A DNA stretch of 64,000 bases from the NCBI GenBank assembly GCA_000091205.1, contig AP006501.2; one strand, given 5' to 3'. A program made the translations under genes and the position numbers. The notes below the pieces were generated by a model. The model saw nothing but the letters and a program-made list of their open reading frames with translations, was not told the origin of the DNA and did no database searches. This DNA comes from Cyanidioschyzon merolae (taxonomy: Eukaryota). Positions 34,424 to 61,680 of the stretch are shown here, piece after piece (the first letter of the stretch is position 1; each line of letters opens with the position of its first letter).

Positions 34424-34906
34424 ATGGCGGAGCAGCACGATCTCGAGGTTTTGGCGACCGGTGATGCGGGAGCGTCTGATGTGACTCCGATTCAAGCCGG
34501 GGCGGTGAAGAAAGGCGTGTATGTTGTGTTGAAGGGGCAGCCCTGTAAGTGTGTGGATGTGAGCACCAGCAAAACCGGGAAACACGGACATGCCAAGGCC
34601 AATATCGTGGGCCTTGATATATTTACGGGCAAGAAATATGAGGATGTTGCACCAACGAGCCATACCATGTACCAACCAGTGGTGGTTCGTTCCGAGTACC
34701 AGCTAATCGACATCGACGCTGAAAACTTTTGCTCGCTGATGGACGACAAGGGTGAAACCCGTGAGGACCTCAAGCTCGACCCCGATAACGATCCCGTGCA
34801 TGCTAAAATCAAGGAAGACTTTGAAGCCGGGAAACAGCTGACAGTGGTTGTCCTCAAGGCGATGAAACAGGAAAAAATCATGCAGTCCAAGGAGCTGAAC
34901 GAGTGA
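34424..34906 (+). CDS. eIF5A: Eukaryotic translation initiation factor 5A (eIF-5A).
   Basis: 160 aa. Hypusine loop STSKTGKHGHAK is present exactly. VYVVLKGQPCKCVDV and the C-terminal OB-fold region are conserved. Confidence 0.95.
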   Translation: MAEQHDLEVLATGDAGASDVTPIQAGAVKKGVYVVLKGQPCKCVDVSTSKTGKHGHAKANIVGLDIFTGKKYEDVAPTSHTMYQPVVVRSEYQLIDIDAENFCSLMDDKGETREDLKLDPDNDPVHAKIKEDFEAGKQLTVVVLKAMKQEKIMQSKELNE

Positions 34907-37212
34907 GGGCGCAGTGCTCTCTCTGGATCGTTTCGGCACGGCGCGGGTGCCGCCTAGTGCGAGCCGGATCGCGTGCGAGCCATCTAGCGTCTAGATCGCC
35001 CAAAGAGCAGTACGACCCTAGAGCGTGCGAGCGTGCAGCGCCCCGAGCACCGTTTCTCAGTGCCCATGAACGAGGTTCTTACGTATCCGAGGCCTAAGCA
35101 GCCTAACAGCGAATCGAAAACAGCGGGCGGTTTGGAGGCGGCTCTGAATACTTCGTATAGCTGAGCTCACGGTTTTTCTGTGTCTATTAACTGGATGCTT
35201 TTCAGTAGAGGCCTAACCAGCGTCACGGCGAATAGGAGCAATCAGGCGATGTTCGTGGAGGCCTGGGATTCTCTAGTAGCCGATTCCGGGCGCGCCTGGA
35301 ACACCGCAAGGTTCAGTTCGAACATACATCCGTTAGACCCAGGACACTGCTCAGGAGCACGCGTTGATGTGGATGGAGCTGGTCCGTTCGGTTTGGAGCG
35401 CTTTCTCTGCCAAGATCTTATGGTTCTTTGGGGGCAGAACTCTCGCTCAGCAGCGTAAAAGGTACCGTAGCCGTTGTCGCCCTATCCAGATCGCACCAAC
35501 GATTTTTTCAATAAGTCTAAAACTCCAAGCATGCGACGCTGTGTTTCATATGCCGAGCTCGATCGGTTGCGATTCGAGTGAGAATGATCGTTGGCGTGCA
35601 GCTGCATAACGCTCGTGCCACCGAAGAACCGAAAGCATCCGCGTGCCTTGCGCGGTGACGAGGCAAGCCTAGCGCACTCGGCGGTACCGCCAACCCGCAC
35701 ACTTCGCTGCAGGTTTTCATCTAGTCAAGCGCGATGGTGTGTCGCTTGCGAAGCTGTGCACCTTGAGCACGTTCTGCAGCCGAATATGAAACGCTTCGAG
35801 CTGCAGCTCCATTCAATATCGACCACGTATCGACAGAGACGTCCAGTATCGCTCCATTTCCATGCAGCCTGCGTCTTGGGCGGAAGCTTTACAGACGCGT
35901 TTGTTCGGCACGAAGTTGACGGCATCATCGTTGAGCGCAGACATCGGATATCTGCGTACCTTCTCAGCCGTCCGCGGTCAAGGTATCCAACGGACTTTTG
36001 TTCAGAACGCCCATAGGGACCCGAGTTCGCGGAGTTTGCTGAAAAAAGCATGCACCAGGACAGCGATCTGAGATACCGTCTCGAGCATAGCCGACCAGAT
36101 GATGAATAAATTTGCAGCTGCTTACGCGTTCGATGCTCTTGGAAGGGAATAAACAGCACCTGCCCGAAAGCATAGTTGGAGCGCTGATACATATCGCGTT
36201 TTTCGCGCGCTCGCACACACACACACACCGTAGAAGCGGCAGAGCAGCAGCGCGTTCTCATTTGAAGACGCTGGAGAGCCCGCCAGCGCACCAGGGATCG
36301 TTCTTTGACCTCAGATACCGCATAACGCCGCACACCAGGAAAAGCATGCGCATCGAACGGAACCTGCGGTTCTAGATTGTTGCGCTTCAATGGACAACGA
36401 ACGATGCACGTTCTTCGCTATAATGCTTGGTACGCTGCCGCGCGGACAGTCAGACGTGCTTCGTATGGCTAAGGCGTCCTTCTTTCCTCAAGTTCGTCCC
36501 ATGGAGAGAGCACTTGTTGAACCGAGTTCCCGAGGCATGCAGACACCGCGTTGCTCTGGATAACAGAAAAAATTGCACACCGTAACACGCTTTCTCAGCT
36601 CCGTATCCTCAGTTGATGTCCGCTGGACAACGAAAGCATGTTACCGAAAAAGGTATGCCTCCCGCACTTGGATGGAACCGGCTGAATAACTTGGCAGCGT
36701 AGTCTCGTGTCTTCGTGCCGGCCGCGGCTGCTGCACTACCTGGGATCCATGCCGATGGCACATGATGCTGGCACTGCCAAGCAACTTGCCCCACAAGCGT
36801 TTTACACTGCCAGCGGCAGTTGGCGGCTTTCCTAGAACACTCAAACAGCAGTCTTAACTTGATCAGCAGCAGACAGCCAGAAGAAGGGCATCTATGGTCC
36901 ATGTTTCAGGTGCTTACCGGTACGAGTGTTGCAGGAAACAACGGCTGGCTGACAACCGACGTCGTTTCTGGTGTACCGCAGAGATCGCCGGCCTGGGGGG
37001 CGTACTCAGGTTCATGGCCTGCGCAGAAGCGCTCCTCTTTTGAAGCGCAAAGTCTCCATCTTCCGAGCTCCAATGAATACCGTCTAGAACCTTCGTGGTT
37101 CGGCGGCGGAGCCCGAAAACGAGCAGCCCAGCGGGGACGCTGCCCTAACTGCTACTCTCCGCAGCAAACTACACGCCAAAGTCCGCGTTGTGCAGTCTCC
37201 GACGAGACCTAC

Positions 37213-38475
37213 ATGGACCGCTGCATTCAACTGGCTTTAATGGCAAGGCCGTCCCCGAACCCCCCGGTCGGATGTGTGGTCGTCGACCCTGACACAGGTC
37301 GCATTGTCGGAGAGGGTTTCCATCCGCGTGCGGGCTACCCCCACGCGGAGCAATACGCCTTGCAGGCGACCTTTACAACGCTGAGGAACGCGTCATCGCA
37401 CCAAAACCAGCACCTGGCAGCGACTGTCTCTGAGCCCGTGGCCGCACTACCTGGCTCTGCACGAGGTATGCATGTTTACGTGACGCTCGAGCCGTGCAAC
37501 CATTACGGGAGAACGCCTCCCTGCACCGAGTCCCTGATCCAGGCACAGGTGTCGCGGGTTGTCATCGGTACACGAGATCCAGACCCCAGAACTGCTGGTT
37601 CCGGTGCGGAGCGTCTTCGACGAGCGGGTATCGAGGTGCAGTTTGGACCTCGCGCAGCCGAGTGCTTGAAACTCTACGAGGGCTTTCAGCATCGCATCCA
37701 CCATCAGACTCCACTTGGTATCCTCAAATACGCCATGAGTCTGGATGGTAAAATAGCGACGGAAACAGGGGATGCTCGATGGGTGAGTTCGGCGACCAGT
37801 CGACGGTATGTGCATGAGCTACGCGCTCGCTGTGATGCTGTTGTCGTCGGCGCTGGTACGGTACGTCGAGATGATCCCGCTCTGACGGTTCGTTTGGAGG
37901 AATCCATCGATGTACCTGAACTGGGATATGGCCAGCCCTTGCGTGTCGTCATGTGCACCAGCGCTGCACGATTGTGGCGAGATCGACCTGACGCAAAGCT
38001 CTGGGATACATCAGTGGCCCCGACGGTGCTTGCAGTGTCGTCTGCAGGTGAAGTTTCTTCCTCGAAGGAGCTCGATGCTGCTGAAAGAGAGGCGATTCTT
38101 GCGTTACGCTCTAGAGGTGTCCAGATTGCGTATCTGGATGCATTACTTCCCTTGCCGCCGACGCGGGCGCTAATGCAGTGGCTCTACGACTACGGCTGCA
38201 CCACGGTACTCTGGGAGTGTGGTGGTACCCTTGCGACGTCAGCGGTGCGCGAATCAGCTGTCCACAAAATACTTGTATTCGTAGCCCCAAAGCTCGTCGG
38301 GGGCAGGTCGAGCCCGACGCCGATTGCCGCTGATTTGGGTGTTCGCAACATGGAGGAAGCGCTCGCGCTACGACTTGGTCGGATGGAGGTCATCGGATCT
38401 GGGCAGGATGTGCTCATCGAGGCGTACCTCGACAGCAACAAGCTATCGCCCGATGCGGCTAGCGGCACTACTTGA
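37213..38475 (+). CDS. ribD: Riboflavin biosynthesis protein RibD (fused pyrimidine deaminase and pyrimidine reductase). The ORF is open in frame from 36820, adding a ~131-aa N-terminal extension that may be a targeting peptide.
   Basis: CDA-fold deaminase motifs (HAEQYAL ... YVTLEPCNHYGRTPPC). C-terminal RibD reductase domain (GILKYAMSLDGKIATETGDARWVSS...AVVVGAGTVRRDDPALTVR...). Start coordinate may be off by 1 nt, from hand-counting. Confidence 0.85.
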   Translation: MDRCIQLALMARPSPNPPVGCVVVDPDTGRIVGEGFHPRAGYPHAEQYALQATFTTLRNASSHQNQHLAATVSEPVAALPGSARGMHVYVTLEPCNHYGRTPPCTESLIQAQVSRVVIGTRDPDPRTAGSGAERLRRAGIEVQFGPRAAECLKLYEGFQHRIHHQTPLGILKYAMSLDGKIATETGDARWVSSATSRRYVHELRARCDAVVVGAGTVRRDDPALTVRLEESIDVPELGYGQPLRVVMCTSAARLWRDRPDAKLWDTSVAPTVLAVSSAGEVSSSKELDAAEREAILALRSRGVQIAYLDALLPLPPTRALMQWLYDYGCTTVLWECGGTLATSAVRESAVHKILVFVAPKLVGGRSSPTPIAADLGVRNMEEALALRLGRMEVIGSGQDVLIEAYLDSNKLSPDAASGTT

Positions 38476-38840: not shown

Positions 38841-39308
38841 TCAGCGACCAGGCGTCATGGGTCGTCTCGACGACGTCAGCGGCGAGGAGGAAGCCTTGGG
38901 CGCTTGCTTCAACCCCAGACGCGGTCTTCGTAAGCCCAGGAATATCAACGACCAACCTGTTGCTGAAAACAAAGCTGCCTTATCATATTTCTCCCTAAAG
39001 CTTTTCTTCTGAGTTTTGTGATGTGCGTATCGCATCGCGAGGTAGCCTGCGGGAAATCCCCCAGCAGCGCCCAGTGCTATAAGGTCGCGCTCCGGAATAC
39101 GCCACTGGTGTTGGAGAGCTCTTCTTTTATCCTCAATAATGCACCCGGCAGATATACCGTTCACGCCAAGTAGGTACCATGGAATAAACCTACGGATAGC
39201 TTGCGCCATAGACACACGTTTCGTCGTAGCTTTGCTTTTAAAGCGCCCTGCCCGACGCTTCTCTGTTGTGCGACCTTTAACGTTAACCTGTGCCCCGACT
39301 GCGGACAC
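38841..39308 (-). CDS. DUF1294-family small membrane protein.
   Basis: FIPWYLLGVNGISAGCIIEDKRRALQHQWRIPERDLIALGAAGGFPAGYLAMRYAHHKTQK matches the DUF1294 consensus (DK..A.....WRIPE..L......GG.PGA......RHKT). It has a basic N-terminal ~33 aa. Confidence 0.65.
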   Translation of the reverse strand: MSAVGAQVNVKGRTTEKRRAGRFKSKATTKRVSMAQAIRRFIPWYLLGVNGISAGCIIEDKRRALQHQWRIPERDLIALGAAGGFPAGYLAMRYAHHKTQKKSFREKYDKAALFSATGWSLIFLGLRRPRLGLKQAPKASSSPLTSSRRPMTPGR

Positions 39309-39575
39309 GTTAGAGTAAAAGCTTCAACGCGTTTATACTCGTACTTATAAAAGCACGTCCGTATCCAAACACGTACTTATGCGAGCATGTGTGAAAGCAC
39401 TCGCGTACAGGGTACCTTCCGGCTGGGCGTCTTGCAGTTTTCAGTGGCCACATTGCCGCGCGTCTGCACCGTCGCGCCGCTTCAGCCTACTTTTCTGCGC
39501 TCTCTGTTACTGTTGCTTGACTTGTCGGACGTGCACCGTATACATCCCGCTAGGACGCTGGGGAGAGAGATCCTT

Positions 39576-41156
39576 ATGAGCAGCGAACAGAACCAGCCTT
39601 CATTTGAGTCAGATGGTCTAAAAATTTCGTCAGTAAGGCAACCAGTAGGGGCGTACTTGGCTGCCACGACAGCAGGTACAAGTGCTGCGAGTAGTGGGCG
39701 GCGGCTTGCGTCGCATGGCACCCGCGATGCGGATCCCGGACGCGGGAGCGCTGAAGACGACCGAGTAATGAGCGACTCGGAGTTGCTGTTGCGCAGAAAC
39801 GTTGGTCGACCTGACACCCTAACAGCAGTAGGAACACGCCTCCTGCCGACACGCAGTCGCGAGACGCTACTCGAGAAACTTCCCAAAGTGCGTTCTGTTG
39901 TCATATCCGGTGTTGCACTACTGCAACTGGTGAAAGAATGGCAACGGGCAGGTAAAGGAAGCGCTTCCAAACGCACTGGTGTCCGATCAATGGAAGGCGC
40001 TGCGTCTGAAGCCTATTGCACGGGCCAGCTCGTCGGCTACCTAGAAGTGGAGCGACGCAGTGACCCCACGAGCGACGACGCCAAAACAGCTGACGCTCTC
40101 GTCTGGGGTGACGTGATGCACGTCACAGCAGCCTTTCCCGCTCCCCGTCTGAGCGTCATTGCCGGTGGTCGCTCGACTTCGGGGAGTGCACCGACGTCGT
40201 TGCCCGCTGCGGTGATAGCCAACCAGATGCAGCAGAGGGGCACTTATCTGTGGGAGCGTTGTCGTCTTCTAAGAGAAGCGTCCCGCGAGAATCTGATTGT
40301 GGGTTGGTTTTGCGTTGGCGATACGAGGCAGCTATCGTCTTTTGTGAACGCAGAATGGACGGAGACGCAGTTTCAACACCAGTTCTGGTTGAAAAATGCG
40401 GTCTGTGTTGTATTTGATCCACTACGGAGACACAGTAGCGGGACGCTCGGGATTCGCGTGGTCCGCCTTTCCGATGCGTTCATGCGAGAGTACAGCAGAC
40501 TCATGGATTATCGAGTCGGAGGCTCGGGAAGCTCAAACAAGGGGTCAGCAGCGCTTCAAGCTTACGGTAGAGGTGGCGGTCGCGTCGCAGCCGGCTCAAC
40601 GTTTGTCTCGGAAGTGCTGCGCGATCTGGGGCTCTGCTCCCAGACAATGATCGAGGACGTTCCTTTCACAGTACACGCGTCAGCGCTCTCGGAACAGTAT
40701 CTGGCATGGAGCGCTCTTCAGCATCCACAAGCACGTGAGAACGCAAAGTTTACAGAACACGCTGCTGCCTGTGACTCTGATGTTCAGAGGCTCTCACTGC
40801 GTCGCGATGGGGTGCTCGTGGAGGAAACCGCTGGCGGTTTGATCCAAGATCTCGATGAGGTCACTAGAGAGCAGTCCCGATACCATCACTTTCTTCGGAA
40901 CTATATCCGAATACAGAATCAACAGCATGAATGGCTACGGAGGCGCCGGGCTGAAAACGAACATCGGCGTCAACAGGGACAGGAGCCTCTGCCCGAGGAA
41001 CCGCTTCCCGCGCATCTTAGTTCATATAGTGAGCCGAGTCGTCTTGAGCCTATGATGACCTTTCGTGATCTTTCGGAAACGCTGCGCGATCTTGAACTCG
41101 TCATTGGAGGCCGTTGTGAGAAACAAGTTACGCTCGAATCCTTCAAGACGGTATAG
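39576..41156 (+). CDS. MPN (JAB1/Mov34/PAD-1) domain protein of the non-catalytic MPN(-) type, with a C-terminal coiled-coil region. ORF is open from 39387.
   Basis: MPN core pattern: VVISGVALLQLVKEW..., QLVGYLEVE, VMHVTAAFPAP, LIVGWFCVGDT (no HxH JAMM motif), VNAEWTETQFQHQFWLKNAVCVVFDP, GTLGIRVVRL. Subfamily not assignable; eIF3f/h, CSN6, Rpn8 and Abraxas-like are all possible. Confidence 0.45.
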   Translation: MSSEQNQPSFESDGLKISSVRQPVGAYLAATTAGTSAASSGRRLASHGTRDADPGRGSAEDDRVMSDSELLLRRNVGRPDTLTAVGTRLLPTRSRETLLEKLPKVRSVVISGVALLQLVKEWQRAGKGSASKRTGVRSMEGAASEAYCTGQLVGYLEVERRSDPTSDDAKTADALVWGDVMHVTAAFPAPRLSVIAGGRSTSGSAPTSLPAAVIANQMQQRGTYLWERCRLLREASRENLIVGWFCVGDTRQLSSFVNAEWTETQFQHQFWLKNAVCVVFDPLRRHSSGTLGIRVVRLSDAFMREYSRLMDYRVGGSGSSNKGSAALQAYGRGGGRVAAGSTFVSEVLRDLGLCSQTMIEDVPFTVHASALSEQYLAWSALQHPQARENAKFTEHAAACDSDVQRLSLRRDGVLVEETAGGLIQDLDEVTREQSRYHHFLRNYIRIQNQQHEWLRRRRAENEHRRQQGQEPLPEEPLPAHLSSYSEPSRLEPMMTFRDLSETLRDLELVIGGRCEKQVTLESFKTV

Positions 41157-46960: not shown

Positions 46961-49900
46961 ATGGCAGCAGTTGGGCAGGCAGCTGCGTCCGAAGCAGCGC
47001 TGAGGAGCCCAACCGCGAACATCCTTTTCAAAGGTGATCTGGAGGCACGTTTGGCGCGAGTTGGCGACGCATGGCTCGATGCAAGCAGGACGTTCGATGC
47101 GCTCTTCGTTTATACGGGAGCGCTCGCAGCTGGAGAGCCTGCCGGTTACCGCAAGTCTTATGCTTTGGTTATGTACATACTTGGTGTGGAAGCGCAGCAG
47201 ACTGCTCTGGTGCTGCAGCACACCGACGCCGCGTCAGTACTGTGGATCGGGACGGCAGATGCCGAGATCTGGGCCGCGCTAGAGACAGCTGCCCCAGCGC
47301 TGGGTCTATCCGCGGGTCACCATGAGGCAGACCGCCATCAAAATGGTGTCGAAGTGAACGACGATCGTAGCGGAGCGTCTTCAACCCCGAAAGCAACCCT
47401 TCTACGGGGCAACTTGGGCTCAGACTGGTTCCTGGTAGCCGCTTGGATAGCAACCAAGCGTGACCTGGAGAAGACGCTTGCCGTGGCGGGGGTTCCTGCG
47501 CGTTCCTCATTGAATTTGGGTGCCCTGGTGAAGGAGCGGAACGTACATCAGGGTGACTTTGCCGCGAAATGCACCGCCTACGTTTTCGGAGACGCGGCAG
47601 GGTCGGACGTTGCCACTCCACCTCCGGTGAATGCAGCGGAATGGATTGGAAACCTGCTCATTGCGAAACTCCCCGATGAAATTCAAAATATCCGGAAAGC
47701 CTCATATCTGTGCGCGAAAGTTTGCCAGGCATACTTTGTGGAACGGATGGAAAGCATTTTGGACGAGGACACACCAGTTTCGCATGATCGCCTAAGCGAG
47801 GAAGTCGAGGCGCGACTGCTCGCACCAGCAACCGTTGGTGTGCAGCTTGTTGCCAGTGAATGTGAAGCCGCATACCCACCGATCATACAGAGTGGACGAG
47901 ATGGTCCCTTCGACCTGCGTCCTAGTGCAATCAGCAATGAACAAAATTTGAGCACGGGCCTGGTGCTCGCCTCGATCGGTGCACGCTATCATCAGTACTG
48001 CGCAAATGTGGTGCGCACTTTTCTCATAGATGTGGAGAAACCCATCCGCAGCATGTACGCGAAGGCGCTGCAAGCGTTGGAAGCGGTGCGACGCGCGTTG
48101 CGCCCGGAGCAGGAGGCATGGGTTGCCTACAACGCAGCCATTCAAGAGCTCGGAGAGGAGCTAGCCGCCGCGCACCTTGCCGGGAAACACGTCGGATTTG
48201 GCATTGGTCTCGAGTTCCGAGACTCAACCTGGCTCTTGAACGAACAGAACCACAAAATTCTTCGTTCCGGAATGACGTTCCAGATTCAGGTCGGCCTGGA
48301 GCGGCTTGGGGAGAACAGTACACTCGCGCTCATGGTAGCAGATACCGTACTCGTTGGTGGTGCGGATCCAGAAGGGGCGGAAGTTTTGACCCAAGCTGCC
48401 TCCAAGAGCCCTGCCAAAGTAACCTATTTCCTCGATATGGACGCCGACGAGGAAGCGGATGACGGCACCGTAGGCAATGCGGGGAAGAATTCTGAAGCGT
48501 TGGCTTCTGAGCAGGTCGCCGGGGAACCCAGTGCTCCGTCGATCGTTACCCGCCGTCGTGCACAACAATCTAGTGCTCCTGATGATGATGATGCAGCTGC
48601 GGAAGCGGAGCGCATTCGACTCCACCAGCAGAAGCTCGCCGAGCAAAAGCTCCGTGAATCGCGTACCCGAATTCTGGGAAAGAGTGCATCCAGTGCAGGG
48701 GACCAATACAGCGCCGAGGGCAAAGGATTTCGTGCGCTGAATGCTTATCGCGCCTACGAGCGAGTTGAAGACTTTCCCGCTGGGCTACGACCGCGCCAAC
48801 TCTTCGTGGATATGGAACGCGAAGTCGTCCTGGCACCAATCACGGGAATTCCCGTTCCTTTTCACATCGCGACGATCAAGAATGCCTCCAAGTCCGATGA
48901 GTCGGGCTTTACGTACCTGCGCATCAACTTCCTTGTGCCTGGCACTAGCGCGTCGACGGCAAGTGCCTCGGGCGCCGGCGGCCTGACGGCCCCCGCAGGT
49001 GTCAGCGGCGCCGCGGCACGACTATCCCTCTTTCCCGATAACCCCGGATTCGTGCTGAAAGAACTCTCCTTCCGCTCCGCAAGTGCCGCCAACCTGAGCG
49101 AGGTCTTCCGCAAGATCAAGGAGCTTCGCAAACGCTTTACCAGCCGGGAAACGGAAGCCCAAGAGAAGGAGACGCTCGTGAAACAGGCTCCTCTGATTCT
49201 TGAGACCGACCCGAGACGCATCCCGCATCTTGTTGACGTGTCGATTCGCCCGTCGTTGGGCGCTGGGGGTCAACGTGCAAACCAGGGTGTCCTCGAAGCG
49301 CATGTCAATGGTCTGCGTTTTCGCTCGCGGCAACAGCGCGCTGTGGACATTCTCTATCGCAACGTGAAGCACGCCTTCTTCCAAGAGGCGCGTAACGAGG
49401 TCATCGTGCTGGTTCATTTCCGTCTGCATACGCCGATCATGGTGGGAAAGCGCAAAACAATTGATATCCAGTTTTACACCGAGGTGATGGATGCGACCGT
49501 CCGCCTCGCGGATACGCGACGGAATCCCTTCGATATCGATGAAATCGAAGAGGAGCAGCGTGAACGGGAGAATCGGCATCGTCTGAACAAACTGTTCTTC
49601 AAGTTTACCAAAGAGGTAGAGGCCAAAGCAAATGAAGAGCTCGAGTTCGATATGCCGTATCGGGAATTGGGCTTTGAGGGTGCTCCTGATAAGATGCAGC
49701 GCTTTTTGATGCCGACGCGCGATTGTCTCGTTGATCTTATCGAGTTTCCACCGGTGATCATTTCGCTGGAGGATATCGAAGTAGCTCACTTTGAACGCGT
49801 GACCTACTCGCTCAAAAACTTTGACCTTGTGTTGGTGATGAAGAATTTCGCACAGGAACCGAGTCGTGGTGAGACTCAATGGATCCGCATCTCGTCAGTT

Positions 49901-50584
49901 CCGAGCACAGAGCTGGACGCGGTGAAAAAGTGGCTTGATTCCGTCAATATCCCCTTCTATCAGGGTCCATCGAATCTGAATTGGAACACGGTGCTGCGCA
50001 CCATTCGAGAAGACCTCGAGGGTTTCTACGAAGAGGGCGGTTGGCGTTTCCTGGACGCCGAAGCGTCGAGTTCTTCCTCTGAAGATGAGGATGAAGAGGA
50101 AGGAGACGACGCTGGTGCCGGCGCAAAAACACGTGCCTCCGCGACCAAGGCTAGCGCTGGCGGGGCCGCTGCGGATCTCTCCGATCAGGATGAAGAATAC
50201 GTTCCTAGCGACGAAGACTTTGAAGCGGAATCTTCCGAAAGCGACTATGACGAAGACGATGATGATGAATCTTTCGAGGCTGACGAGGAAGCAATTGACT
50301 TGGCCGAGGAACTCGGTGATGACGATGCAGGTGAAGCCGAGCTCAGTTCCTCTGACGAAGGCCTCGACTGGGACGAACTCGAACGCCGCACCAAGGAGGA
50401 AGAGCGACAGAAGCGCAAGCGATGGCACGACGACGACGATGACGACGAGGATGATAATGATGGTGATGACGATAACGAGAATGATGGCGATGCGCGACGT
50501 CGACGCCACGGACGCAAGCAGCGTGCCCGGGCGCCCTCCGGACAGACAGCGTTGACGCACGGGCCCAAGCGCGTACTTCGTTAG
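46961..50584 (+). CDS. SPT16: FACT complex subunit SPT16. ORF is open from 46907.
   Basis: N-terminal aminopeptidase-like domain, Spt16 middle and Rtt106-like domains. Colinear conserved blocks such as QLFVDMEREVVLAPITGIPVPFHIATIKNASKSDE...LRINF, PHLVDVSIRPSL....GVLEAHVNGLRF, IDIQFYTEVMD. Asp/Glu/Ser-rich acidic C-terminal tail. 1207 aa. Confidence 0.9.
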   Translation: MAAVGQAAASEAALRSPTANILFKGDLEARLARVGDAWLDASRTFDALFVYTGALAAGEPAGYRKSYALVMYILGVEAQQTALVLQHTDAASVLWIGTADAEIWAALETAAPALGLSAGHHEADRHQNGVEVNDDRSGASSTPKATLLRGNLGSDWFLVAAWIATKRDLEKTLAVAGVPARSSLNLGALVKERNVHQGDFAAKCTAYVFGDAAGSDVATPPPVNAAEWIGNLLIAKLPDEIQNIRKASYLCAKVCQAYFVERMESILDEDTPVSHDRLSEEVEARLLAPATVGVQLVASECEAAYPPIIQSGRDGPFDLRPSAISNEQNLSTGLVLASIGARYHQYCANVVRTFLIDVEKPIRSMYAKALQALEAVRRALRPEQEAWVAYNAAIQELGEELAAAHLAGKHVGFGIGLEFRDSTWLLNEQNHKILRSGMTFQIQVGLERLGENSTLALMVADTVLVGGADPEGAEVLTQAASKSPAKVTYFLDMDADEEADDGTVGNAGKNSEALASEQVAGEPSAPSIVTRRRAQQSSAPDDDDAAAEAERIRLHQQKLAEQKLRESRTRILGKSASSAGDQYSAEGKGFRALNAYRAYERVEDFPAGLRPRQLFVDMEREVVLAPITGIPVPFHIATIKNASKSDESGFTYLRINFLVPGTSASTASASGAGGLTAPAGVSGAAARLSLFPDNPGFVLKELSFRSASAANLSEVFRKIKELRKRFTSRETEAQEKETLVKQAPLILETDPRRIPHLVDVSIRPSLGAGGQRANQGVLEAHVNGLRFRSRQQRAVDILYRNVKHAFFQEARNEVIVLVHFRLHTPIMVGKRKTIDIQFYTEVMDATVRLADTRRNPFDIDEIEEEQRERENRHRLNKLFFKFTKEVEAKANEELEFDMPYRELGFEGAPDKMQRFLMPTRDCLVDLIEFPPVIISLEDIEVAHFERVTYSLKNFDLVLVMKNFAQEPSRGETQWIRISSVPSTELDAVKKWLDSVNIPFYQGPSNLNWNTVLRTIREDLEGFYEEGGWRFLDAEASSSSSEDEDEEEGDDAGAGAKTRASATKASAGGAAADLSDQDEEYVPSDEDFEAESSESDYDEDDDDESFEADEEAIDLAEELGDDDAGEAELSSSDEGLDWDELERRTKEEERQKRKRWHDDDDDDEDDNDGDDDNENDGDARRRRHGRKQRARAPSGQTALTHGPKRVLR

Positions 50585-50585
50585 C

Positions 50586-51575
50586 TCAATCAGAATCGTT
50601 CGCTGGCTCTAACTGTACTCCAAAGCACGTCTTCAACGAGTCAAAGAACATAAAGAATATGCCGGACGATACCGCTTCCCAGGTTGCGCGCGGCATGACG
50701 CCCCGGAAGAGTGCAGGGACACCACCCTCTCCGAGCAGCGCTCTGATCGCCTGCAAGACTGAGGTTGCGGGGCGGCCCGGCTGGGTGCCAGAGACCAGCA
50801 TGCGCGTACGCACCACGTCCAGCGGGGTGGTGATGACCCCAATGAGACCGCCGGCGCTCATACCCAGCAGAAGCAGTTCCCATTCGGCGAGTCTTTCGCG
50901 ACCTTGCACTCGCTGCGTGATCTGTTTGAATTGCTCGAACGTCCCAAACTCAAGGGCGTCGAACGGCAAGTTTCGCAAGAGATTCGACCCGTACCCAGTC
51001 CAGAGCGCCATAAGGCCGCCTTCATGAACCCAAAGGTGTCGCGCTGCTGCGACAATATTCGGCTGCAGGCATGACTGCACGCGCTGTTTGATCAACTCCG
51101 CAGGCGTATCGACGAGGCTGCTAACGATATTTGCCATAGCGGCTGCGGTGGTGGACTCCCAGAAGAGCCTCGGGCCCGCGTCCGAGTTCGCACGCAGACC
51201 CTGGTCATGATAATGAGACGCACCGGGGCGCGTTCGACGTAGCGTTCGACGCACCGACTCGTACGTGATCGCGAATAACGCTGCAGTTGGAAGTGAACCA
51301 ATCACGCCGGACAGGACACCGGCGTAGAGCTGGCGAAAACCGCGACCATCCGCCATACGACGTACGGCATGCTGGAATGCGCGTACTGGACCCAGCCAGT
51401 GCAGGCCCGAGGCAGATCGCCACGCCAGTGTCGAAGCAGCTGCAGCTGTTGCGTGGCGAGAGTGGATCAGCCGGCGGTGTGCCGTTGGCAGCTGCTGCGT
51501 CTGCTTGAGCGTGTCGAGTGGGTACAGGAGAAACTCAACTAGGGCCTCGGCGATAGCGCCAGCGCTCGCCTCCAT
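50586..51575 (-). CDS. Mitochondrial carrier family (SLC25) protein, possibly an S-adenosylmethionine-carrier-like member. ORF is open in frame to 51908.
   Basis: Three Mitochondrial carrier signature repeats (LYPLDTLKQ, VDTPAELIKQRVQ, PLDVVRTRM), six TM helices. ~329 aa from Met at 51575, matching family length. Confidence 0.8.
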   Translation of the reverse strand: MEASAGAIAEALVEFLLYPLDTLKQTQQLPTAHRRLIHSRHATAAAASTLAWRSASGLHWLGPVRAFQHAVRRMADGRGFRQLYAGVLSGVIGSLPTAALFAITYESVRRTLRRTRPGASHYHDQGLRANSDAGPRLFWESTTAAAMANIVSSLVDTPAELIKQRVQSCLQPNIVAAARHLWVHEGGLMALWTGYGSNLLRNLPFDALEFGTFEQFKQITQRVQGRERLAEWELLLLGMSAGGLIGVITTPLDVVRTRMLVSGTQPGRPATSVLQAIRALLGEGGVPALFRGVMPRATWEAVSSGIFFMFFDSLKTCFGVQLEPANDSD

Positions 51576-53034
51576 CAAGAGCCGTCGACCGAGCCCGAGC
51601 GGTGTTTTCTGCGCTGGTGTCGCGGGTGCGTGTGAGCTCGTTCGCGTATGTGCACTTGGACTCGCGCCCGAGTCGGCCGGCCGCTTTCGTCGGTCCGGTG
51701 GTGACGACGGCATCACAAGAGCGCGCTCTAACGACCAGATTGGCGTGTGCGCGCACCAGCGGGTTGACGACGTGGAGCTACGGCGTCGTAGCGGCTGCTG
51801 GCCTATCAAGGTATGCAACCACGGGCCGGGGGCAACGTCCGCGTCGAACGCCCAGCTGCCATTATGGCCGCTTCCCGGCGAGGCGACCTTTTCGCTCTCG
51901 AACAGCATGACAACGACGCAAGCACGACCGCGATAGGGTGCTTAGCTGGAGTTCGCACGAAACGCTCCTGGTTTTAAAAAAGCTCCACACTCGCATTACA
52001 TAATGACGCTAGAATCTGGTGCGTTTTGGTGTTGATCATGCCCCGCTTCCGTATCGTGAACAACATACGCTCGGCAGGGTAGAATGCAGCGTGGCTATGT
52101 TCGCCAGCCGCCGCACGCCAACGATAGCACACGTCCGCGCACGGGCAGTGCGCCTCGCGCAGCCAATCATCCGGTTGTCCGTTTCTACTATAAAGGTACA
52201 TTTCTTGGTAGTTATGACTGGTTACTGAATCGCCACCTCAATCAGCACGCATTCGACTTGTCGGGTCCGGGACGCGTGCGCGCTCCGGTGCAGGCGTGTG
52301 CCGGCGCATTCACCGCCACGTGCCTCCGCTTCGTGTGCATCCTGCGGCGTGCCTGGCGTTGGAGCTGCCTCCAGCCGCTGACACCAGTGCATACACGACC
52401 GAGGCAGAGTGTGTGTAGCGCGTCCGGGTCGCGCTGGCACTCCTTCGCGCACCAGGTGAGCTCGGCACTGCCGCCCGCACGCACCCGAACAACGTATGCA
52501 CGCGCGCTTACCCGGTACGGCCACACAGAGACGATGCGATGCATGTGCACGTAGCCACTAACGTCGCTATCGAGCAGGATGCAGCATGCATGCGCGTGCG
52601 CCGTCAGGCCGTTTCGCGGGAAACACGCATCCCATGGACACGTGTGTGTCACGGATACACGTAGCACGCATATCAACAGATGCATTGCTATCATTGTGCG
52701 TGTTCACGCACATGTGCTCGAATACGATTGGCGTTCTCGCACCTTTAGGCGCGAGTGTGCGCTCACTGACCGTCCGGGGTGTCTACATGGATCAGCATCC
52801 AATCGACACGGGTGGGCGGCGTTTCGCAGAGCGCTGCGTCCAGCGTCTGGGCGCATCATCACAGCATGGGGTGTGCAGCTCAGTGCGCGAGGTGGATGCG
52901 AAACCGCGCGCTGCGGTCGCGCGCTCACCAGGACTCGTAGTCGCACCATGCATGCTGTTTGCCAATGAGCAGCGCCCATGTACCTAACCGGAACGCAACG
53001 AACTGCTGCGATTAGCCGCGCACGGTGATCATCT

Positions 53035-56000
53035 CTACGGGAGGCGGGTGCGACGTGCCTTAAGCATGCGCCGCGGCGCCATGGTACCAGGAGCGTGCGC
53101 ATCGCCAAGGGCTTGCGTTGGTGCGAATCCAGGCGCTCCCAGCAACGGTGTCGCTGGCGGAGGCACGCCATTCGCCGCCGGGTCACTCGGAGCCAGCGAC
53201 GGCCACGGTAAGGACGCTGGCAACGGTGCGGCAGCGCCCGATGCGGGCCACGGTGATTGCAACGACGACACCGCTGGTGCCGAGACAGTCGGCGTCTGCA
53301 TCGGTGCACTGAGCGATGAGGTCGTCCACATTGATGTACCGTTCGTGCCTTGAGATGCCGATCCAAACCAGAAAGGTTCCGAATTGGTACTTGCTGTCGG
53401 TGCAGAGAACAACCAAGCGGGTGGTTTCGGCGGCGCGTTGCTAGCAGAAGCGGCGACCGTGGTATCAGTTGCGCCAGCCGCTGGTGGACCAAAGTGAAAC
53501 GTGCGCGCAGGAGCCGGTATCGCGAATGCTCCCTGTGAAATAGATGCCTTCGGTGCAGGGGCCGCGGTTGCGGGCACCTGTTGCGATGCCCCACTTGTGT
53601 CCTGCGATTGCAGGGGCGTCTTCTGGGGTGATTCCCCAAGCGCGGCACCAGCTGTGTCAACGGTTTGTATGGACTGCGTTTCTGTGGAATTCGGCTTCCG
53701 GGATGCGGTTCCGTCGCTGACGGGCGCTGCCGATGTCTCAGCCGCGGATTTGGTTTCGTACGCCGCCTTTTGCGGCATCGCCATCTCAGAGGCTGATTCC
53801 TGCTGCTCTTGCCCAGTACTGCCAGGCGGAGCGTGCATCCGTGGTACGTCATCGGGCGACGCTGACGCCAGCGTATTCGGCTTCGGGTCTGCTGGTGCGC
53901 CGGAGCACTGCGCGATCTCATCGTGTTCGTGCGGCAGTTCTGTCTGCACAAATCCCGCGAGCGATGTCTTTGCGATTTCCGACGACGACGGCGCAACGTC
54001 CAATGACCCTGATGCTGTTGGAGCAGGCGCTGCCGCATTCGGTGGTGCTATGTGTACGGAGGAGTCTGTAGATTCCTGTCGCGACGCTGATTCGCTCGAC
54101 ACCGGCACCGTCGAAGGCTGCACAGTCGTATCAACAGGCACGTACCCGGTTCTTTGAGTAGAGCCGGCTGTGGACAGTGATGGCGGTCGCCAAGGTTCCG
54201 GAATACGCGGCAACGCGATCTCGAGAGGGCGCATGCGCGGTGGCAGCGTCGGCAATGTCGGTGCGTCGGGACTGGAACCCTTCGACAACGTTGTCTCTGC
54301 AGCGTCGGCATGGAGCTGGGCTTCTGGTGACGCTTGTTGCGCGTGCTCTCCATGCTCTGGTAGCGACACCGTTCGTTGCACTTGGAGTTCATCATCGCCG
54401 AGTTTTGACGGGACTATTCGCCGCATGGCTTCGAGTTGCATGTCCCTGGCACCACCAGCCGCAGCACCAAATACGGTCGCAGATTTTGACCTGGCCTGCT
54501 GCTCAGCATCTCCTGTAGGTGGCAATGAAACAGCACCAGCATCCCGCGTAGTTGGCGCTGTGGTGTCATGCGTACCAGTGGCGGCGAGGTCCACTGCAGC
54601 AGCACTTGCATGCTGATCGGCCTTCAGCGGTGGTGTTCGCAAATGCATGTCTTGTTCGGCAGTGAGAGACGACGAGATGTTCGCGTCATCAGCGGAAACA
54701 TCCATCGAAAGCGTACGGCGCTTATTCCGAGCCGCCACTGTTTGCGCAGCACGGTCCAATGCGACGTCCAGCTCAGTACTATGGTCTATGGTGAAACCGC
54801 GATTGCTAGTCACGTCGGATGCAGCGGTTGCTGCTGCGGGTGTTCGCTTCCCAGGTGTTATGCAAGTGTCGCGCTCCCGCTCCGGCTGATCGCGAATCCT
54901 CTTCAGCGATTCGATGAGTTGATATAGGCGGCTCGTTGGAGCTCCAGCGCCATCACCATCTTTGCGGATGTCTGCTCGGGCTCGCTGACCATCGCGCCCA
55001 TTTTGATGCCTATCGGAACGCGTACCCGTCACGATAAGGTTAGCGTCTGATCGGCGCCGTTTCGCCGCACTCATCCGCAGTGCAGGCGATCCATCGAACG
55101 TCCAGACGGCATCTAAACTGCGGTTCTGCACGCTGTGCGCCTGGGATGGCACTGATCCGCTGCCCAGGGATCCAGACGGTAGCGCGCCAGCGCTCTGCTC
55201 GAACACGCCAATGGGGCTGGTTCGCTTCGCGGATGTCGCATTGCTTGTTCGCGTTCGCCCATGCGGGACGTCTCGCAGCGGAAGTGTCGTGAGCGGTACC
55301 GCAGGCAACTTCACGTGACGGACGTCTGCTCTATTTCGCAACCAGCCATCACTTCTGTCGTCGATAGCGCTCATTCCTGACCGCTCTAATTCGCGTCCAA
55401 GAAGGCTCGTCGATAACCTAGGATCCAGGTGCTCCTGCTGGTAGCTCTCTGGATGCGCGCAAAGCGTACTGTAGTGCTGCCTCTCGAGTGAAGCGTGCAA
55501 CGACGACGATCGAGCTCTGTAGGTGTCCAGCATCGACGACGACAGGCGTTCGGTGCTATGCTGTGTGAAACGTGCCTCTAGTCGCGACGCACCAGCGACG
55601 AAATCCGACTCGGTCGGTGTCCATGGCGACAGGCGGCGGAAATCGGAACCGCTTGGACGTACCGAGTACATGGTGCTGGTCGGTGTCGCGGCAGGGGCAT
55701 CCATAATACGCCGATGCGGCACGATCCCCAATGCAGACGGCCGTATCTTTGGTGCTGGCGGCAGGTCGGCCAAATTTCGGATGAGCGACTGCTCCTGCGC
55801 AGGAGATCCCCCTTTTGATGCCTGAATCGCAACGCCCATCGATCGCGTCTCTGTTCGCTGCCTGAACGTCCGAATGACATCGTAGCTGGTCACGAGCGAT
55901 GCCTGCCGGGTGCTACGCTCTGGTGCTCGCGAATCGTTCGCGGGTTGCGCTCCGTAAACCCGTGTCGTAGGGGATTCGGTGTGGGTCGCGGTGGTGGCTG

Positions 56001-60456: not shown

Positions 60457-61680
60457 ATGACGGGGGCACTGCGGTATCGAGCACTGGCTCGAGTCATAGA
60501 ACGCTGTCTGGGCTCGCGTGCGCTCGGCGAGAGCGGCTCAGCAGCTGCAGTCAGCAACTATGTCTGGCAGCGCGAAGCATCACGGGGTTTCGTGTTAGGG
60601 ACGCGCCTGCTGCCGTGGTGCCCGCTAGGGTCGCGTTTACTGCACAGTCCATCACAGACAGCGTCAGTTATCAGGATGAATACCGGTTCGTTTGCACCTA
60701 AACCCGATTTGGGTGAACAACAACCAAACACTCTGACGGGGCAGCCACGTATCATGGTCGTTGGGGTTGGCGGCGCCGGTGGAAACGCAGTCAACAACAT
60801 GATCGCGTCTTCACTGCCCGGGGTCGAGTTCCTCGTCGCGAATACAGACGCACAAGCGCTGAAAATGAGCTTATGTCCTAACCGTATCCAGTTAGGTGCA
60901 AGCCTAACTGAGGGGCTCGGCGCGGGCGCTCGACCCGATATTGGACGAGCCGCAGCAGAGGAAGCGTATGAGACGCTCAAGCGAGAGTTCCGAGGCGTAC
61001 ACTTACTGTTCGTCACTGCCGGCATGGGTGGGGGCACCGGCACTGGCGCTGCGCCCATCATTGCACGAGCAGCCGCAGAGCTCGGTTGCCTGACGGTTGC
61101 CGTCGTCACGAAACCGTTCCATTTTGAGGGCATGATCCGAATGAAAACAGCCGAGCAAGGCATCGTCGAGCTCACAGAACATGTCGATACGATGCTGGTC
61201 ATCCCGAACCAGAATCTCTTCAAAGTCGCCTCGCCGCGCACTAGCTTCCTGGATGCATTCCGCCTCGCCGATCACGTGCTCTACTCTGGTGTTCGTTCGA
61301 TTACAGACCTGATGACGGTACCAGGCCTGATCAATTTGGATTTCGCTGATGTTCGCAGTGTTGTTAGGGAAATGGGACGAGCCATGATGGGATCCGGTGA
61401 GGTCGAGATGGAGGCCGGCAACGAAGAACGCGCCATTCGCGCGAGTGAAGCGGCTATCTGTAACCCGCTGCTCGACGAGACCTCCTTACGCGGCGCTCGC
61501 GGGGTGCTTGTGAACATTACCGGTGGTACGGACATGACGCTTTTTGAGATAGATGCTGCAGCGAATCGAATTCGAGAACAGGTCGATCCCGATGCGAACA
61601 TTATTTTCGGATCGGCTTTCGATGCTTCGATGCAGGGGAGGCTTCGCGTCAGTGTTCTCGCGACCGGCATTCCATCCTGA
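60457..61680 (+). CDS. ftsZ: FtsZ, alpha-proteobacterial/mitochondrial type, with a ~95-aa N-terminal presequence.
   Basis: Tubulin/FtsZ GTPase motifs [33 protein letters not shown]...[14 protein letters not shown] matches the alpha-proteobacterial/mt-FtsZ pattern (plastid FtsZ has ...NTDIQAL / GVEFW). The Arg/Ser/Leu-rich N-terminal extension is compatible with mitochondrial targeting. Confidence 0.88.

What the first reader, a model, noticed from the sequence alone, without database searches (positions are those of the whole stretch)
38841..39575. Bacterial-type DUF1294 gene sharing a very short bidirectional promoter with an MPN(-) gene
DUF1294 is overwhelmingly a bacterial family, often fused to cold-shock domains; eukaryotic members are rare and uncharacterised. 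Here a stand-alone DUF1294 ORF with a basic N-terminal extension (possible organellar presequence) lies head-to-head with an MPN(-) domain gene. Only ~80-270 bp separate the two starts, which implies co-regulation from one bidirectional promoter. This could be a lineage-specific horizontal or endosymbiotic acquisition.
Basis: partly seen in the sequence, partly recalled or inferred. Interest (0 to 1): 0.5.

Follow-up and report, generated by a model that had tools for sequence, protein, structure and literature searches.

The report
Annotated red-alga DUF1294 membrane protein gene
This is an ordinary, already annotated nuclear gene of the red alga Cyanidioschyzon merolae for a small three-helix membrane protein of unknown function; its "basic N-terminal extension" is a start-codon artefact, and related genes occur in many eukaryote groups rather than marking a recent bacterial transfer.

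Summary
The window is Cyanidioschyzon merolae 10D (exact protein matches). The DUF1294 call is right: Pfam PF06961, E=1.9e-18. But the 155-aa ORF starts at GTG. The real CDS is 38841..39209(-), 122 aa, identical to BAM82933.1 / UniProt M1VM32, "DUF1294 domain-containing protein".

The basic N-terminal "presequence" is non-coding. Orthologues start at the ATG, and one has a stop a single codon upstream.

The head-to-head neighbour is eIF3h, an MPN(-) protein, starting at 39576. The ATG-to-ATG gap is therefore 366 bp, not 80-270. That is short but in range for this compact genome; other divergent pairs in the window have gaps of 493, 639 and 753 bp.

The divergent pairing holds only in the two closest relatives. 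A more distant cyanidiophyte has eIF3h in tandem, and another has a different gene there. No motif is shared between the intergenic regions.

DUF1294 is not rare in eukaryotes. It occurs in red and green algae, dinoflagellates, chytrids, dictyostelids and Discoba, and these sequences group together away from the named bacteria. Deep branches are unresolved.

Function remains unknown. Balanced loop charges and direct 3+3 tandem fusions suggest an antiparallel dimer.

Verdict: real gene, already known, low interest.

The parts
38841..39209 (-). DUF1294 (YsdA/COG3326-type) CDS, 122 aa plus stop. It encodes a small predicted three-helix membrane protein with a variable basic C-terminal tail.
   Evidence: Exact match to BAM82933.1/XP_005538969.1/M1VM32. 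Pfam PF06961 E=1.9e-18. AF2 model pLDDT 93 with helices 2-32, 40-62 and 69-93. Hydrophobic segments at 8-27, 43-59 and 77-94. Core pN 0.10-0.18 against pS 0.68-0.84 versus orthologues.
39210..39308 (-). Spurious 5' extension of the ORF (33 codons from GTG 39308). It is non-coding and is probably 5' UTR or promoter.
   Evidence: Not in the annotated protein. Orthologues start at the ATG. No counterpart in L001/L002. Stop one codon upstream of the ATG in Cyanidiococcus. The 155-aa form appears only in prokaryote-style gene calls from metagenomes.
39210..39575 (.). 366-bp divergent intergenic region between the DUF1294 ATG and the eIF3h ATG. It is the presumed shared promoter region plus both 5' UTRs. 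It contains TATAAAAG at 39346-39353 (+) and a 9-bp direct repeat CGTACTTAT at 39340-39348 and 39372-39380.
   Evidence: Sequence read. Equivalent gaps are 206 bp in Cyanidiococcus and 180 bp in L002. No k-mer of 7 nt or more is shared by all three. Transcription start sites were not determined.
39387..39575 (+). In-frame, stop-free stretch upstream of the eIF3h start (63 codons from ATG 39387). It is not part of the annotated protein.
   Evidence: The 589-aa version is not in the protein collection. The 526-aa version from ATG 39576 matches BAM82934.1 exactly. Orthologues are also 526 aa.
39576..41156 (+). eIF3 subunit h (MPN-minus) CDS, 526 aa, transcribed divergently from DUF1294.
   Evidence: Exact match to BAM82934.1. 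PF19445 eIF3h_C E=2.2e-16. PDB eIF3h chains at E about 1e-15, plus an MPN-region match of residues 224-304.
36901..38475 (+). Bifunctional RibD (pyrimidine deaminase/reductase), convergent with DUF1294. Their stop codons are 365 bp apart. This is the most conserved neighbour of DUF1294 among cyanidiophytes. The start codon is not verified (first ATG of the ORF).
   Evidence: PF00383 and PF01872. RibD is convergent with DUF1294 in L001, L002, L003 and L006.
34424..34906 (+). eIF5A, part of the conserved cyanidiophyte gene block eIF5A ... RibD - DUF1294.
   Evidence: PF21485 and PF01287. A 160-aa eIF5A (159 aa in L006) lies near DUF1294 in L001, L002, L003 and L006.

Best explanation
The locus is an ordinary, vertically inherited nuclear gene of Cyanidioschyzon merolae 10D (BAM82933.1, 122 aa). 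It encodes a eukaryote-type member of the DUF1294/YsdA family.

Shown:
- The protein has three predicted hydrophobic helices and the family's invariant polar residues: N17 in helix 1, D27-K28, R37, E40, G50-G51 in helix 2, H64-K65 and F71.
- It has no cleavable N-terminal presequence. Helix 1 starts at about residue 8.
- The core is under strong purifying selection, while the basic C-terminal tail evolves almost freely.
- The gene sits in a conserved cyanidiophyte block (eIF5A ... RibD - DUF1294 - eIF3h). It is transcribed divergently from eIF3h across a 366-bp gap, which is short but within the range seen in this compact, almost intron-free genome.

Inferred:
- The two genes probably share a nucleosome-free promoter region, as any divergent pair this close would. 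There is no evidence for a specific shared regulatory element or a functional link.
- The protein most likely works as a membrane-embedded dimer of 3-helix units, plausibly antiparallel (dual topology). That would give a six-helix unit with a polar centre (Asn/Gly-Gly), such as a small-solute or ion pathway. Its compartment in red algae is unknown.
For: Identity and gene model:
- Exact matches of six window proteins to C. merolae 10D entries, including the 122-aa DUF1294 and the 526-aa eIF3h.
- Pfam PF06961 at 66.9 bits.
- Orthologue start positions, the intergenic alignment and the upstream stop in Cyanidiococcus.
- pN/pS.

Structure:
- AF2 model with pLDDT 93 and three helices; hydropathy.
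- Invariant residues in alignments A2 and A5.

Synteny.

Spacing in context: divergent ATG-ATG gaps between the larger ATG-started ORFs of the window (most 200 aa or more) are 366, 493, 639, 753, 1212, 1463 and 2664 bp.

Eukaryote-wide family:
- Taxonomic spread.
- NJ grouping of 45 of 49 named eukaryotes away from 11 named bacteria; across 100 bootstraps the best such grouping held on average 46.7 named eukaryotes and 0.33 named bacteria.
- Nearest named relatives are Pyropia, Chlorokybus and Gracilaria; profile scores are 82.7 against 67.1 bits.

Dimer and dual-topology inference:
- Across 190 single-domain members, K+R counts are balanced: loop 1 mean 4.98, loop 2 mean 5.35, net bias mean -0.14, median 0.
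- Six proteins are direct 3+3 tandem fusions.
- In the AF2 model of one tandem protein, helices 3 and 4 are joined by only 3 residues, so the second repeat must be inverted in the membrane.
Against: - No expression, transcription-start or localisation data could be consulted, so shared-promoter use is only an inference from distance.
- Against strict dual topology: cold-shock-domain fusions carry an extra hydrophobic helix before the DUF1294 unit, which would fix their orientation. The C. merolae protein itself has a K+R bias of -3 because of its basic tail.
- The tandem model has only moderate confidence (pLDDT 77.6, pTM 0.56, six sequences in the alignment).
- In the point-estimate NJ tree the four cyanidiophyte sequences fall outside the main eukaryotic group, with 0% support. 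Their placement rests on distances and profile scores, not on a resolved tree.
Confidence: 0.8

Rival explanations
1. One reading: a recent, lineage-specific horizontal (or plastid/mitochondrial) transfer of a bacterial DUF1294 gene into this alga. The gene would have acquired a basic organellar presequence and been captured by the eIF3h promoter.
For: DUF1294 is numerically dominated by bacteria: 1390 representative clusters at E<=1e-3, with many bacterial names. It was listed as an HGT candidate in Dictyostelium (PMC3188802). Deep nodes of the tree are unresolved, so a bacterial sister group cannot be excluded formally.
Against: The presequence does not exist. The gene is shared, in a conserved gene block, by at least five cyanidiophyte lineages. 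It is also present in four other red-algal genera. The twelve closest named relatives outside the cyanidiophytes are all eukaryotic, and the closest bacterium is further away, at distance 1.23 against 0.90 for Pyropia.
Confidence: 0.04
2. The eukaryotic DUF1294 group as a whole is an ancient endosymbiotic (mitochondrial, alphaproteobacterial) inheritance and functions in an organelle membrane. The C. merolae protein would then be an organellar membrane protein imported without a cleavable presequence. This is compatible with the best explanation at the level of this locus.
For: The family is distributed across Archaeplastida, Alveolata, Opisthokonta, Amoebozoa and Discoba. Full-length chytrid members carry N-terminal extensions of 47-69 residues that are Arg/Ser-rich, with no or at most one acidic residue in the first 30 residues, like mitochondrial presequences. 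Alphaproteobacterial members (Hyphomicrobiaceae, Anderseniella) are among the high-scoring bacterial hits.
Against: There is no supported sister relationship to alphaproteobacteria. Red and green algal, dictyostelid and Discoba members have only 6-15 residues before helix 1. The patchy distribution could equally reflect eukaryote-to-eukaryote transfers. No targeting predictor or localisation data were available.
Confidence: 0.25
3. DUF1294 is functionally tied to translation initiation, and the shared promoter with eIF3h reflects that link.
For: Head-to-head with eIF3h in three cyanidiophytes and adjacent in a fourth, with eIF5A nearby. In Bacillus subtilis, ysdA is co-transcribed with infC-rpmI-rplT (PMC1865079). 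Many proteobacterial members are fused to a nucleic-acid-binding cold-shock domain.
Against: The same paper states that ysdA is not conserved in the infC operon even in close relatives. eIF3h is replaced by an unrelated gene in L006 and is not adjacent in Porphyridium or Gracilaria. The three other bacterial neighbourhoods examined show no translation genes. RibD, not eIF3h, is the constant neighbour.
Confidence: 0.07
4. The ORF is a chance open frame and not a gene.
For: It is short (122 aa), and no expression data were examined.
Against: Pfam hit at 66.9 bits. Syntenic orthologues are conserved with core pN/pS of about 0.14-0.22 while synonymous sites are saturated. All family-invariant residues are present.
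Confidence: 0.01

Closest known systems
DUF1294 / YsdA family (Pfam PF06961, COG3326), for example Bacillus subtilis YsdA
   Same: Significant Pfam match. The same invariant residues are present (N, DK..A, R..E, GG, HK, F). It has the same size and the same three-hydrophobic-helix layout. Function is unknown in all members.
   Different: It belongs to the eukaryotic sequence group (WR[IV]PE, GG[WF]P.GY, HKT.K.SF). It has a basic, fast-evolving C-terminal tail of about 28 residues that most bacterial members lack. It has no cold-shock-domain fusion and is not in an operon.
Dictyostelium DUF1294 gene DDB_G0285825 (an HGT candidate in the Dictyostelium genome papers)
   Same: A stand-alone eukaryotic DUF1294 protein with a short N-terminus. 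Dictyostelid orthologues fall in the same eukaryote-dominated similarity group.
   Different: Dictyostelid proteins have C-terminal tails of 52-86 residues. The broad eukaryotic distribution found here makes the 'bacteria to Dictyostelium' transfer reading doubtful as well.
Dual-topology or inverted-repeat small membrane proteins (EmrE/SMR, Fluc/CrcB, and, as 3-helix units that dimerise, semiSWEET)
   Same: About 100 residues. Near-zero K+R bias across the family. Fused two-repeat versions exist. There is a conserved polar residue in the middle of a membrane helix.
   Different: There is no sequence or fold match to any of them. The units have three helices, not four (SMR, Fluc). SemiSWEET dimers are parallel. 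The resemblance is an analogy in architecture only.
Bidirectional promoters of divergent gene pairs under 1 kb apart (as defined in PMC2871058)
   Same: Divergent orientation with 366 bp between the start codons.
   Different: No shared motif is conserved, the orientation is kept only in the closest relatives, and co-expression is untested. In a genome this compact such pairs are commonplace.

Membership tests
DUF1294 (PF06961) | Pfam HMM score above the gathering threshold | tested here: met
   66.9 bits against a cut-off of 25, E=1.9e-18, covering profile positions 3-55 of 55.
DUF1294 (PF06961) | Family-invariant residues (N in helix 1; D-K..A; R..E; G-G in helix 2; H-K; F) | tested here: met
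   N17, D27, K28, A31, R37, E40, G50, G51, H64, K65 and F71 are invariant in alignments A2 and A5 and are present in the window protein.
DUF1294 (PF06961) | Small integral membrane protein with three hydrophobic helices | tested here: met
   Prediction only. AF2 helices 2-32, 40-62 and 69-93 at pLDDT 93. Hydropathy peaks at 8-27, 43-59 and 77-94. Membrane insertion was not shown experimentally.
eIF3 subunit h (MPN-minus), the neighbouring gene | eIF3h-specific C-terminal region and an MPN fold lacking the JAMM metal-binding motif | tested here: met
   PF19445 E=2.2e-16. PDB eIF3h chains at E about 1e-15, and the MPN-region stretch 224-304 aligned to 3j8b_H residues 99-175. Exact match to BAM82934.1. 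'GWFCVGD' replaces the HxH motif (direct reading of the sequence; the motif is from my own knowledge). The Pfam JAB/MPN model itself did not score at E<=0.1.
Bidirectional promoter pair | Divergent genes with less than 1 kb between them | tested here: met
   366 bp between the ATGs. Definition from PMC2871058.
Bidirectional promoter pair | Shared regulatory elements and/or co-expression | not testable with these tools
   No expression or TSS data were available. No motif of 7 nt or more is shared among the three orthologous intergenic regions. The literature search for locus tags found nothing.
Recent horizontal gene transfer from bacteria | Nested with support inside a bacterial clade, and absent from related eukaryotes | tested here: not met
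   The gene is present in eight or more red-algal lineages and many other eukaryotes. The nearest named relatives are eukaryotic. There is no supported bacterial sister group.
Organelle-targeted protein with a cleavable presequence | N-terminal extension that is translated and conserved in orthologues | tested here: not met
   The extension depends on a GTG start, is absent from the annotation and the orthologues, and is interrupted by a stop codon in Cyanidiococcus. No targeting predictor was available.
Dual-topology membrane proteins | Near-zero positive-charge (K+R) bias between the two membrane faces | tested here: met
   190 single-domain members have mean bias -0.14 and median 0. The C. 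merolae protein itself is at -3.
Dual-topology membrane proteins | Related fused proteins with two oppositely oriented repeats | tested here: inconclusive
   Six direct 3+3 tandem proteins exist. An AF2 model shows a 3-residue H3-H4 linker (pLDDT 77.6). However, cold-shock-domain fusions add an extra helix that would fix the orientation. No experimental topology is available.

The most novel reading that the evidence does not exclude
DUF1294 proteins, including this red-algal one, may be dual-topology three-helix units that assemble as antiparallel dimers into a previously unrecognised class of small membrane channel or transporter. The eukaryotic members would form one old group, inherited from an early eukaryote (possibly via the mitochondrial ancestor, given the presequence-like extensions in chytrids), rather than a scatter of recent bacterial transfers as assumed for Dictyostelium.
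Probability: 0.2. Interest if true: 0.45.

Novelty: already known. Interest (0 to 1): 0.15.

Why it matters
It matters little for this locus. The gene, its family assignment and its neighbour are already in public annotation, and the features that made it look unusual do not hold up: the presequence, the ultra-short promoter and the supposed rarity in eukaryotes.

Three points are useful:
1. Bacterial-style ORF calling on a eukaryotic genome (GTG/TTG starts) creates false N-terminal extensions that look like targeting peptides.
2. DUF1294 is a widespread but patchy eukaryotic family. Its 'HGT candidate' label from the Dictyostelium papers deserves re-examination.
3. The family shows signs of dual topology, which gives a concrete and cheap experimental handle on a domain whose function has been unknown for about 20 years.

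Tried and rejected
- Sequence search of PDB with the family profile: no hit at E<=1.
- Foldseek of the monomer model against PDB: nothing at E<=0.001.
- NJ phylogenies with bootstrap on 91 and 88 columns: only the Cyanidioschyzon/Cyanidiococcus trio is supported, and all deeper nodes have 28% support or less. A bacterial-versus-eukaryotic origin therefore cannot be decided from a tree. I fell back on distances, profile scores and bipartition purity.
- Bacterial gene neighbourhoods of three members (an alphaproteobacterium, Clostridium, Mariniblastus): no recurring partner.
- Search for conserved promoter motifs in the three orthologous divergent intergenic regions: none of 7 nt or more. The 9-bp direct repeat CGTACTTAT in C. 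merolae is about what chance gives (my estimate is roughly 0.26 expected).
- Literature search for the presumed locus tags (CMS350C-CMS355C), looking for expression data: no paper. I therefore do not state the locus tag.
- Metagenomic near-identical variants of the 155-aa ORF: a single A6T difference, too little to compare constraint in the extension against the CDS.
- tRNA and Rfam scans of the window: nothing.
- The idea that eIF3h adjacency is ancestral in red algae: rejected, because it is absent in Porphyridium, Gracilaria and L006.

Full report
**What the window is.** Six proteins translated from the window match Cyanidioschyzon merolae strain 10D entries exactly, on a 1,282,939-bp record with CMS locus tags. 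The composition fits this compact, almost intron-free red-algal genome: about 55% GC, with long uninterrupted ORFs on both strands.

**The observation.**
- The ORF 38841..39308(-) exists and carries a clear DUF1294 match: PF06961, E=1.9e-18, 66.9 bits against a cut-off of 25.
- The ORF list uses bacterial start rules, and this ORF begins with GTG. The first ATG is at 39209.
- The resulting 122-aa product is identical to BAM82933.1 / XP_005538969.1 / UniProt M1VM32. It is annotated as 'hypothetical protein, conserved' and 'DUF1294 domain-containing protein'.
- The 155-aa form is found only in metagenome gene calls made with prokaryotic callers, some of them printed with a leading V.
- Orthologues from Cyanidiococcus yangmingshanensis (P0002) and a third cyanidiophyte (P0003) are 116 aa and start at the equivalent Met.
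- The roughly 100 bp upstream of the C. merolae ATG has no counterpart in their intergenic regions. Cyanidiococcus has an in-frame stop one codon upstream of its ATG.
- The 'basic N-terminal extension' is therefore untranslated sequence. The protein enters its first hydrophobic helix at about residue 8.

**The neighbour and the spacing.**
- The + strand gene is eIF3 subunit h. Evidence: PF19445, matches to solved eIF3h chains including the MPN region, and an exact match of the 526-aa product from ATG 39576 to BAM82934.1.
- The longer in-frame version from ATG 39387 is not in the collection, and orthologues are 526 aa.
- With the supported starts, the ATG-to-ATG distance is 366 bp (39210..39575), not 80-270 bp.
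- Among the larger ATG-started ORFs in the window (most of them 200 aa or more), divergent gaps are 366, 493, 639, 753, 1212, 1463 and 2664 bp. This is the shortest gap but not an outlier.
- Convergent genes here can be far tighter. The SPT16 and mitochondrial-carrier stop codons are 1 bp apart.

**Is the gene real?** Yes. Against the two closest orthologues, synonymous sites are saturated (pS 0.68-0.84). Non-synonymous change in codons 1-95 is low (pN 0.10-0.18). The C-terminal tail changes almost neutrally.

**Conservation of the arrangement.**
- Cyanidiococcus (L001) and a third lineage (L002) keep eIF3h(-) | DUF1294(+) | RibD(-) ... eIF5A, with 206 and 180 bp between the divergent starts.
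- In a more distant lineage (L003; protein 53% identical) eIF3h is still adjacent but lies on the same strand, in tandem upstream.
- In another lineage (L006) the head-to-head neighbour is an unrelated 511-aa gene, while RibD remains convergent.
- In Porphyridium and Gracilaria neither eIF3h nor RibD is adjacent.
- The three divergent intergenic regions share no k-mer of 7 nt or more.
- So the pair meets the distance definition of a bidirectional promoter (PMC2871058), but nothing points to a selected, specific co-regulatory unit. RibD, not eIF3h, is the constant neighbour.

**Origin.**
- A full scan of 1.84 billion representatives gave 1390 hits at E<=1e-3. After the cyanidiophytes, the best hits included Pyropia (red alga), Dinema (euglenid) and a fusion to a eukaryotic NIF/FCP1-type phosphatase.
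- A profile built from eukaryote-like sequences retrieved named members from:
  - red algae: Galdieria phlegrea, Porphyridium, Gracilaria;
  - green and streptophyte algae: Myrmecia, Trebouxia, Klebsormidium, Chlorokybus;
  - Symbiodiniaceae;
  - more than 20 chytrids and an aphelid;
  - seven dictyostelids;
  - Acrasis and Dinema.
- Cnidarian members are reported in PMC7642931.
- Neighbour-joining trees on about 90 columns resolve only the Cyanidioschyzon/Cyanidiococcus trio; deeper nodes have 28% bootstrap or less.
- Even so, 45 of 49 named eukaryotes sit on one side of a split that holds none of the 11 named bacteria. In 100 bootstraps the best eukaryote-rich split contained on average 46.7 named eukaryotes and 0.33 named bacteria.
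- The four cyanidiophyte sequences float in the point tree. However, their closest named relatives are Pyropia (0.90), Chlorokybus (1.01) and Gracilaria (1.07), against 1.23 for the closest bacterium. A profile of 45 other eukaryotes scores the C. merolae protein 82.7 bits, against 67.1 for the 11-bacteria profile. Unequal profile sizes are a caveat.
- The most economical reading is vertical inheritance within red algae of a eukaryote-type DUF1294. A lineage-specific transfer is not supported.
- Whether the eukaryotic group as a whole came from a bacterium or an endosymbiont long ago is undecidable here.
- The old 'HGT candidate' label for the Dictyostelium gene (PMC3188802; repeated in the 2026 D. 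giganteum preprint) looks weaker in this light.

**What the protein is like.**
- AlphaFold2 on a 20-sequence alignment gives a confident three-helix model: pLDDT 93, with helices at 2-32, 40-62 and 69-93. This matches three moderately hydrophobic segments.
- Invariant residues are N17 (mid helix 1), D27-K28 and A31 (end of helix 1), R37 and E40 (first loop), G50-G51 (mid helix 2), H64-K65 (second loop) and F71.
- No solved structure is related by sequence or convincingly by fold.
- The literature offers no function. B. subtilis ysdA is co-transcribed with infC-rpmI-rplT, but that linkage is not conserved.
- Three further bacterial neighbourhoods show no common partner.

**A mechanistic inference (not shown).**
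- Across 190 single-domain members, the two loops carry equal positive charge: K+R means of 4.98 and 5.35, net bias mean -0.14, median 0. This is the signature that marks dual-topology membrane proteins (my knowledge of the EmrE/Fluc literature).
- Six proteins are direct fusions of two DUF1294 units, often with a degenerate first repeat.
- In the AF2 model of one of them, helices 3 and 4 are joined by three residues, which forces the second repeat into the opposite orientation (moderate confidence).
- Together these points suggest that single-domain members work as antiparallel dimers, forming a six-helix unit with Asn and Gly-Gly at its centre. A small channel or transporter is the most natural guess.
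- Against it: cold-shock-domain fusions insert an additional helix ahead of the DUF1294 unit, which would fix their orientation. The C. merolae protein has a basic tail that shifts its own bias to -3.
- I put about 0.3 on the antiparallel-dimer architecture and less on any specific transport function.

**Targeting.**
- Full-length chytrid members do carry N-terminal extensions of 47-69 residues that are rich in Arg/Ser, with no or at most one acidic residue in the first 30 residues (for example MLRQLLSRTSTRPNGVTRYTSFHTSR...). These look like mitochondrial presequences.
- All red-algal, green-algal, dictyostelid and Discoba members have only 6-15 residues before helix 1.
- This is a lead for localisation experiments. 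It says nothing definite about C. merolae.

**Verdict.** The finding is a real gene in a known family, already annotated. Its unusual-looking features come from bacterial-style ORF calling and an under-estimate of the family's eukaryotic distribution. Interest for this locus is low. The family-level observations are modestly interesting leads: a coherent eukaryotic group, presequence-like extensions in chytrids, and dual-topology signatures.

Noticed in passing
Related proteins, not the window: chytrid DUF1294 members P0339, P0346, P0352, P0333, P0341, P0347, P0365, P0371, P0382, P0383, P0408: Full-length chytrid DUF1294 proteins carry N-terminal extensions of 47-69 residues that are Arg/Ser-rich, with no or at most one acidic residue in the first 30 residues. 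These resemble mitochondrial presequences. Red and green algal, dictyostelid and Discoba members lack them.
   Followed up: partly
Related proteins P0075, P0082, P0093, P0105, P0119, P0244 and the family-wide statistics: Direct 3+3 tandem DUF1294 fusions exist, often with a degenerate first repeat. Single-domain members have near-zero K+R bias between the two loops. Both are signatures of dual-topology or antiparallel assembly, and I know of no description of this for the family.
   Followed up: partly
L003:227-1795 versus window 39576-41156; L006:2022-3557: Within cyanidiophyte-like lineages the block eIF5A ... RibD-DUF1294 is conserved. The gene on the other side of DUF1294 varies: eIF3h head-to-head (window, L001, L002), eIF3h inverted into tandem (L003), or an unrelated 511-aa gene (L006).
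   Followed up: yes
window 36820-38475 (+), RibD: The bifunctional riboflavin-pathway RibD has about 100 residues before its deaminase domain (the domain starts at residue 127 of the TTG-started ORF, and the first ATG is at 36901). This neighbouring bacterial-type gene is a more plausible carrier of an organellar transit peptide than DUF1294. The start codon and targeting were not verified.
   Followed up: no
window 39387-39575 (+): An in-frame ATG 63 codons upstream of the annotated eIF3h start keeps the frame open. Prokaryotic callers report 592-aa versions from metagenomes. If the eIF3h transcript starts upstream of 39387, this ATG would have to be bypassed or would add an N-terminal extension.
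   Followed up: partly
window 39340-39380 (+): A TATA-like TATAAAAG lies at 39346-39353, and a 9-bp direct repeat CGTACTTAT at 39340-39348 and 39372-39380, inside the divergent intergenic region. Neither is conserved in the two relatives, and the repeat is near chance expectation.
   Followed up: partly
window 50584-50586: The convergent genes SPT16/FACT (46961-50584, +) and a mitochondrial carrier (50586-51908, -) have stop codons only 1 bp apart, so their 3' UTRs must overlap.
   Followed up: no
window 60457-61680 (+): An FtsZ gene (Tubulin/FtsZ GTPase domain plus FtsZ_C) lies in the window. It is a genuinely endosymbiont-derived organelle-division gene in the same stretch of chromosome.
   Followed up: no
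window 50001-58000; ORF 53035-57792 (-): This stretch has higher GC (0.60-0.62) and strong AT skew that changes sign. It contains a 1585-aa ORF with no Pfam match and long overlapping ORFs in other frames.
   Followed up: no
Protein P0074 (365 aa, ENA metagenome contig): A eukaryote-type DUF1294 unit is fused at its C-terminus to an NIF/FCP1-like phosphatase domain (PF03031, E=1.5e-45). The only membrane segments seen are those of the DUF1294 unit, which may therefore anchor the phosphatase to a membrane.
   Followed up: no
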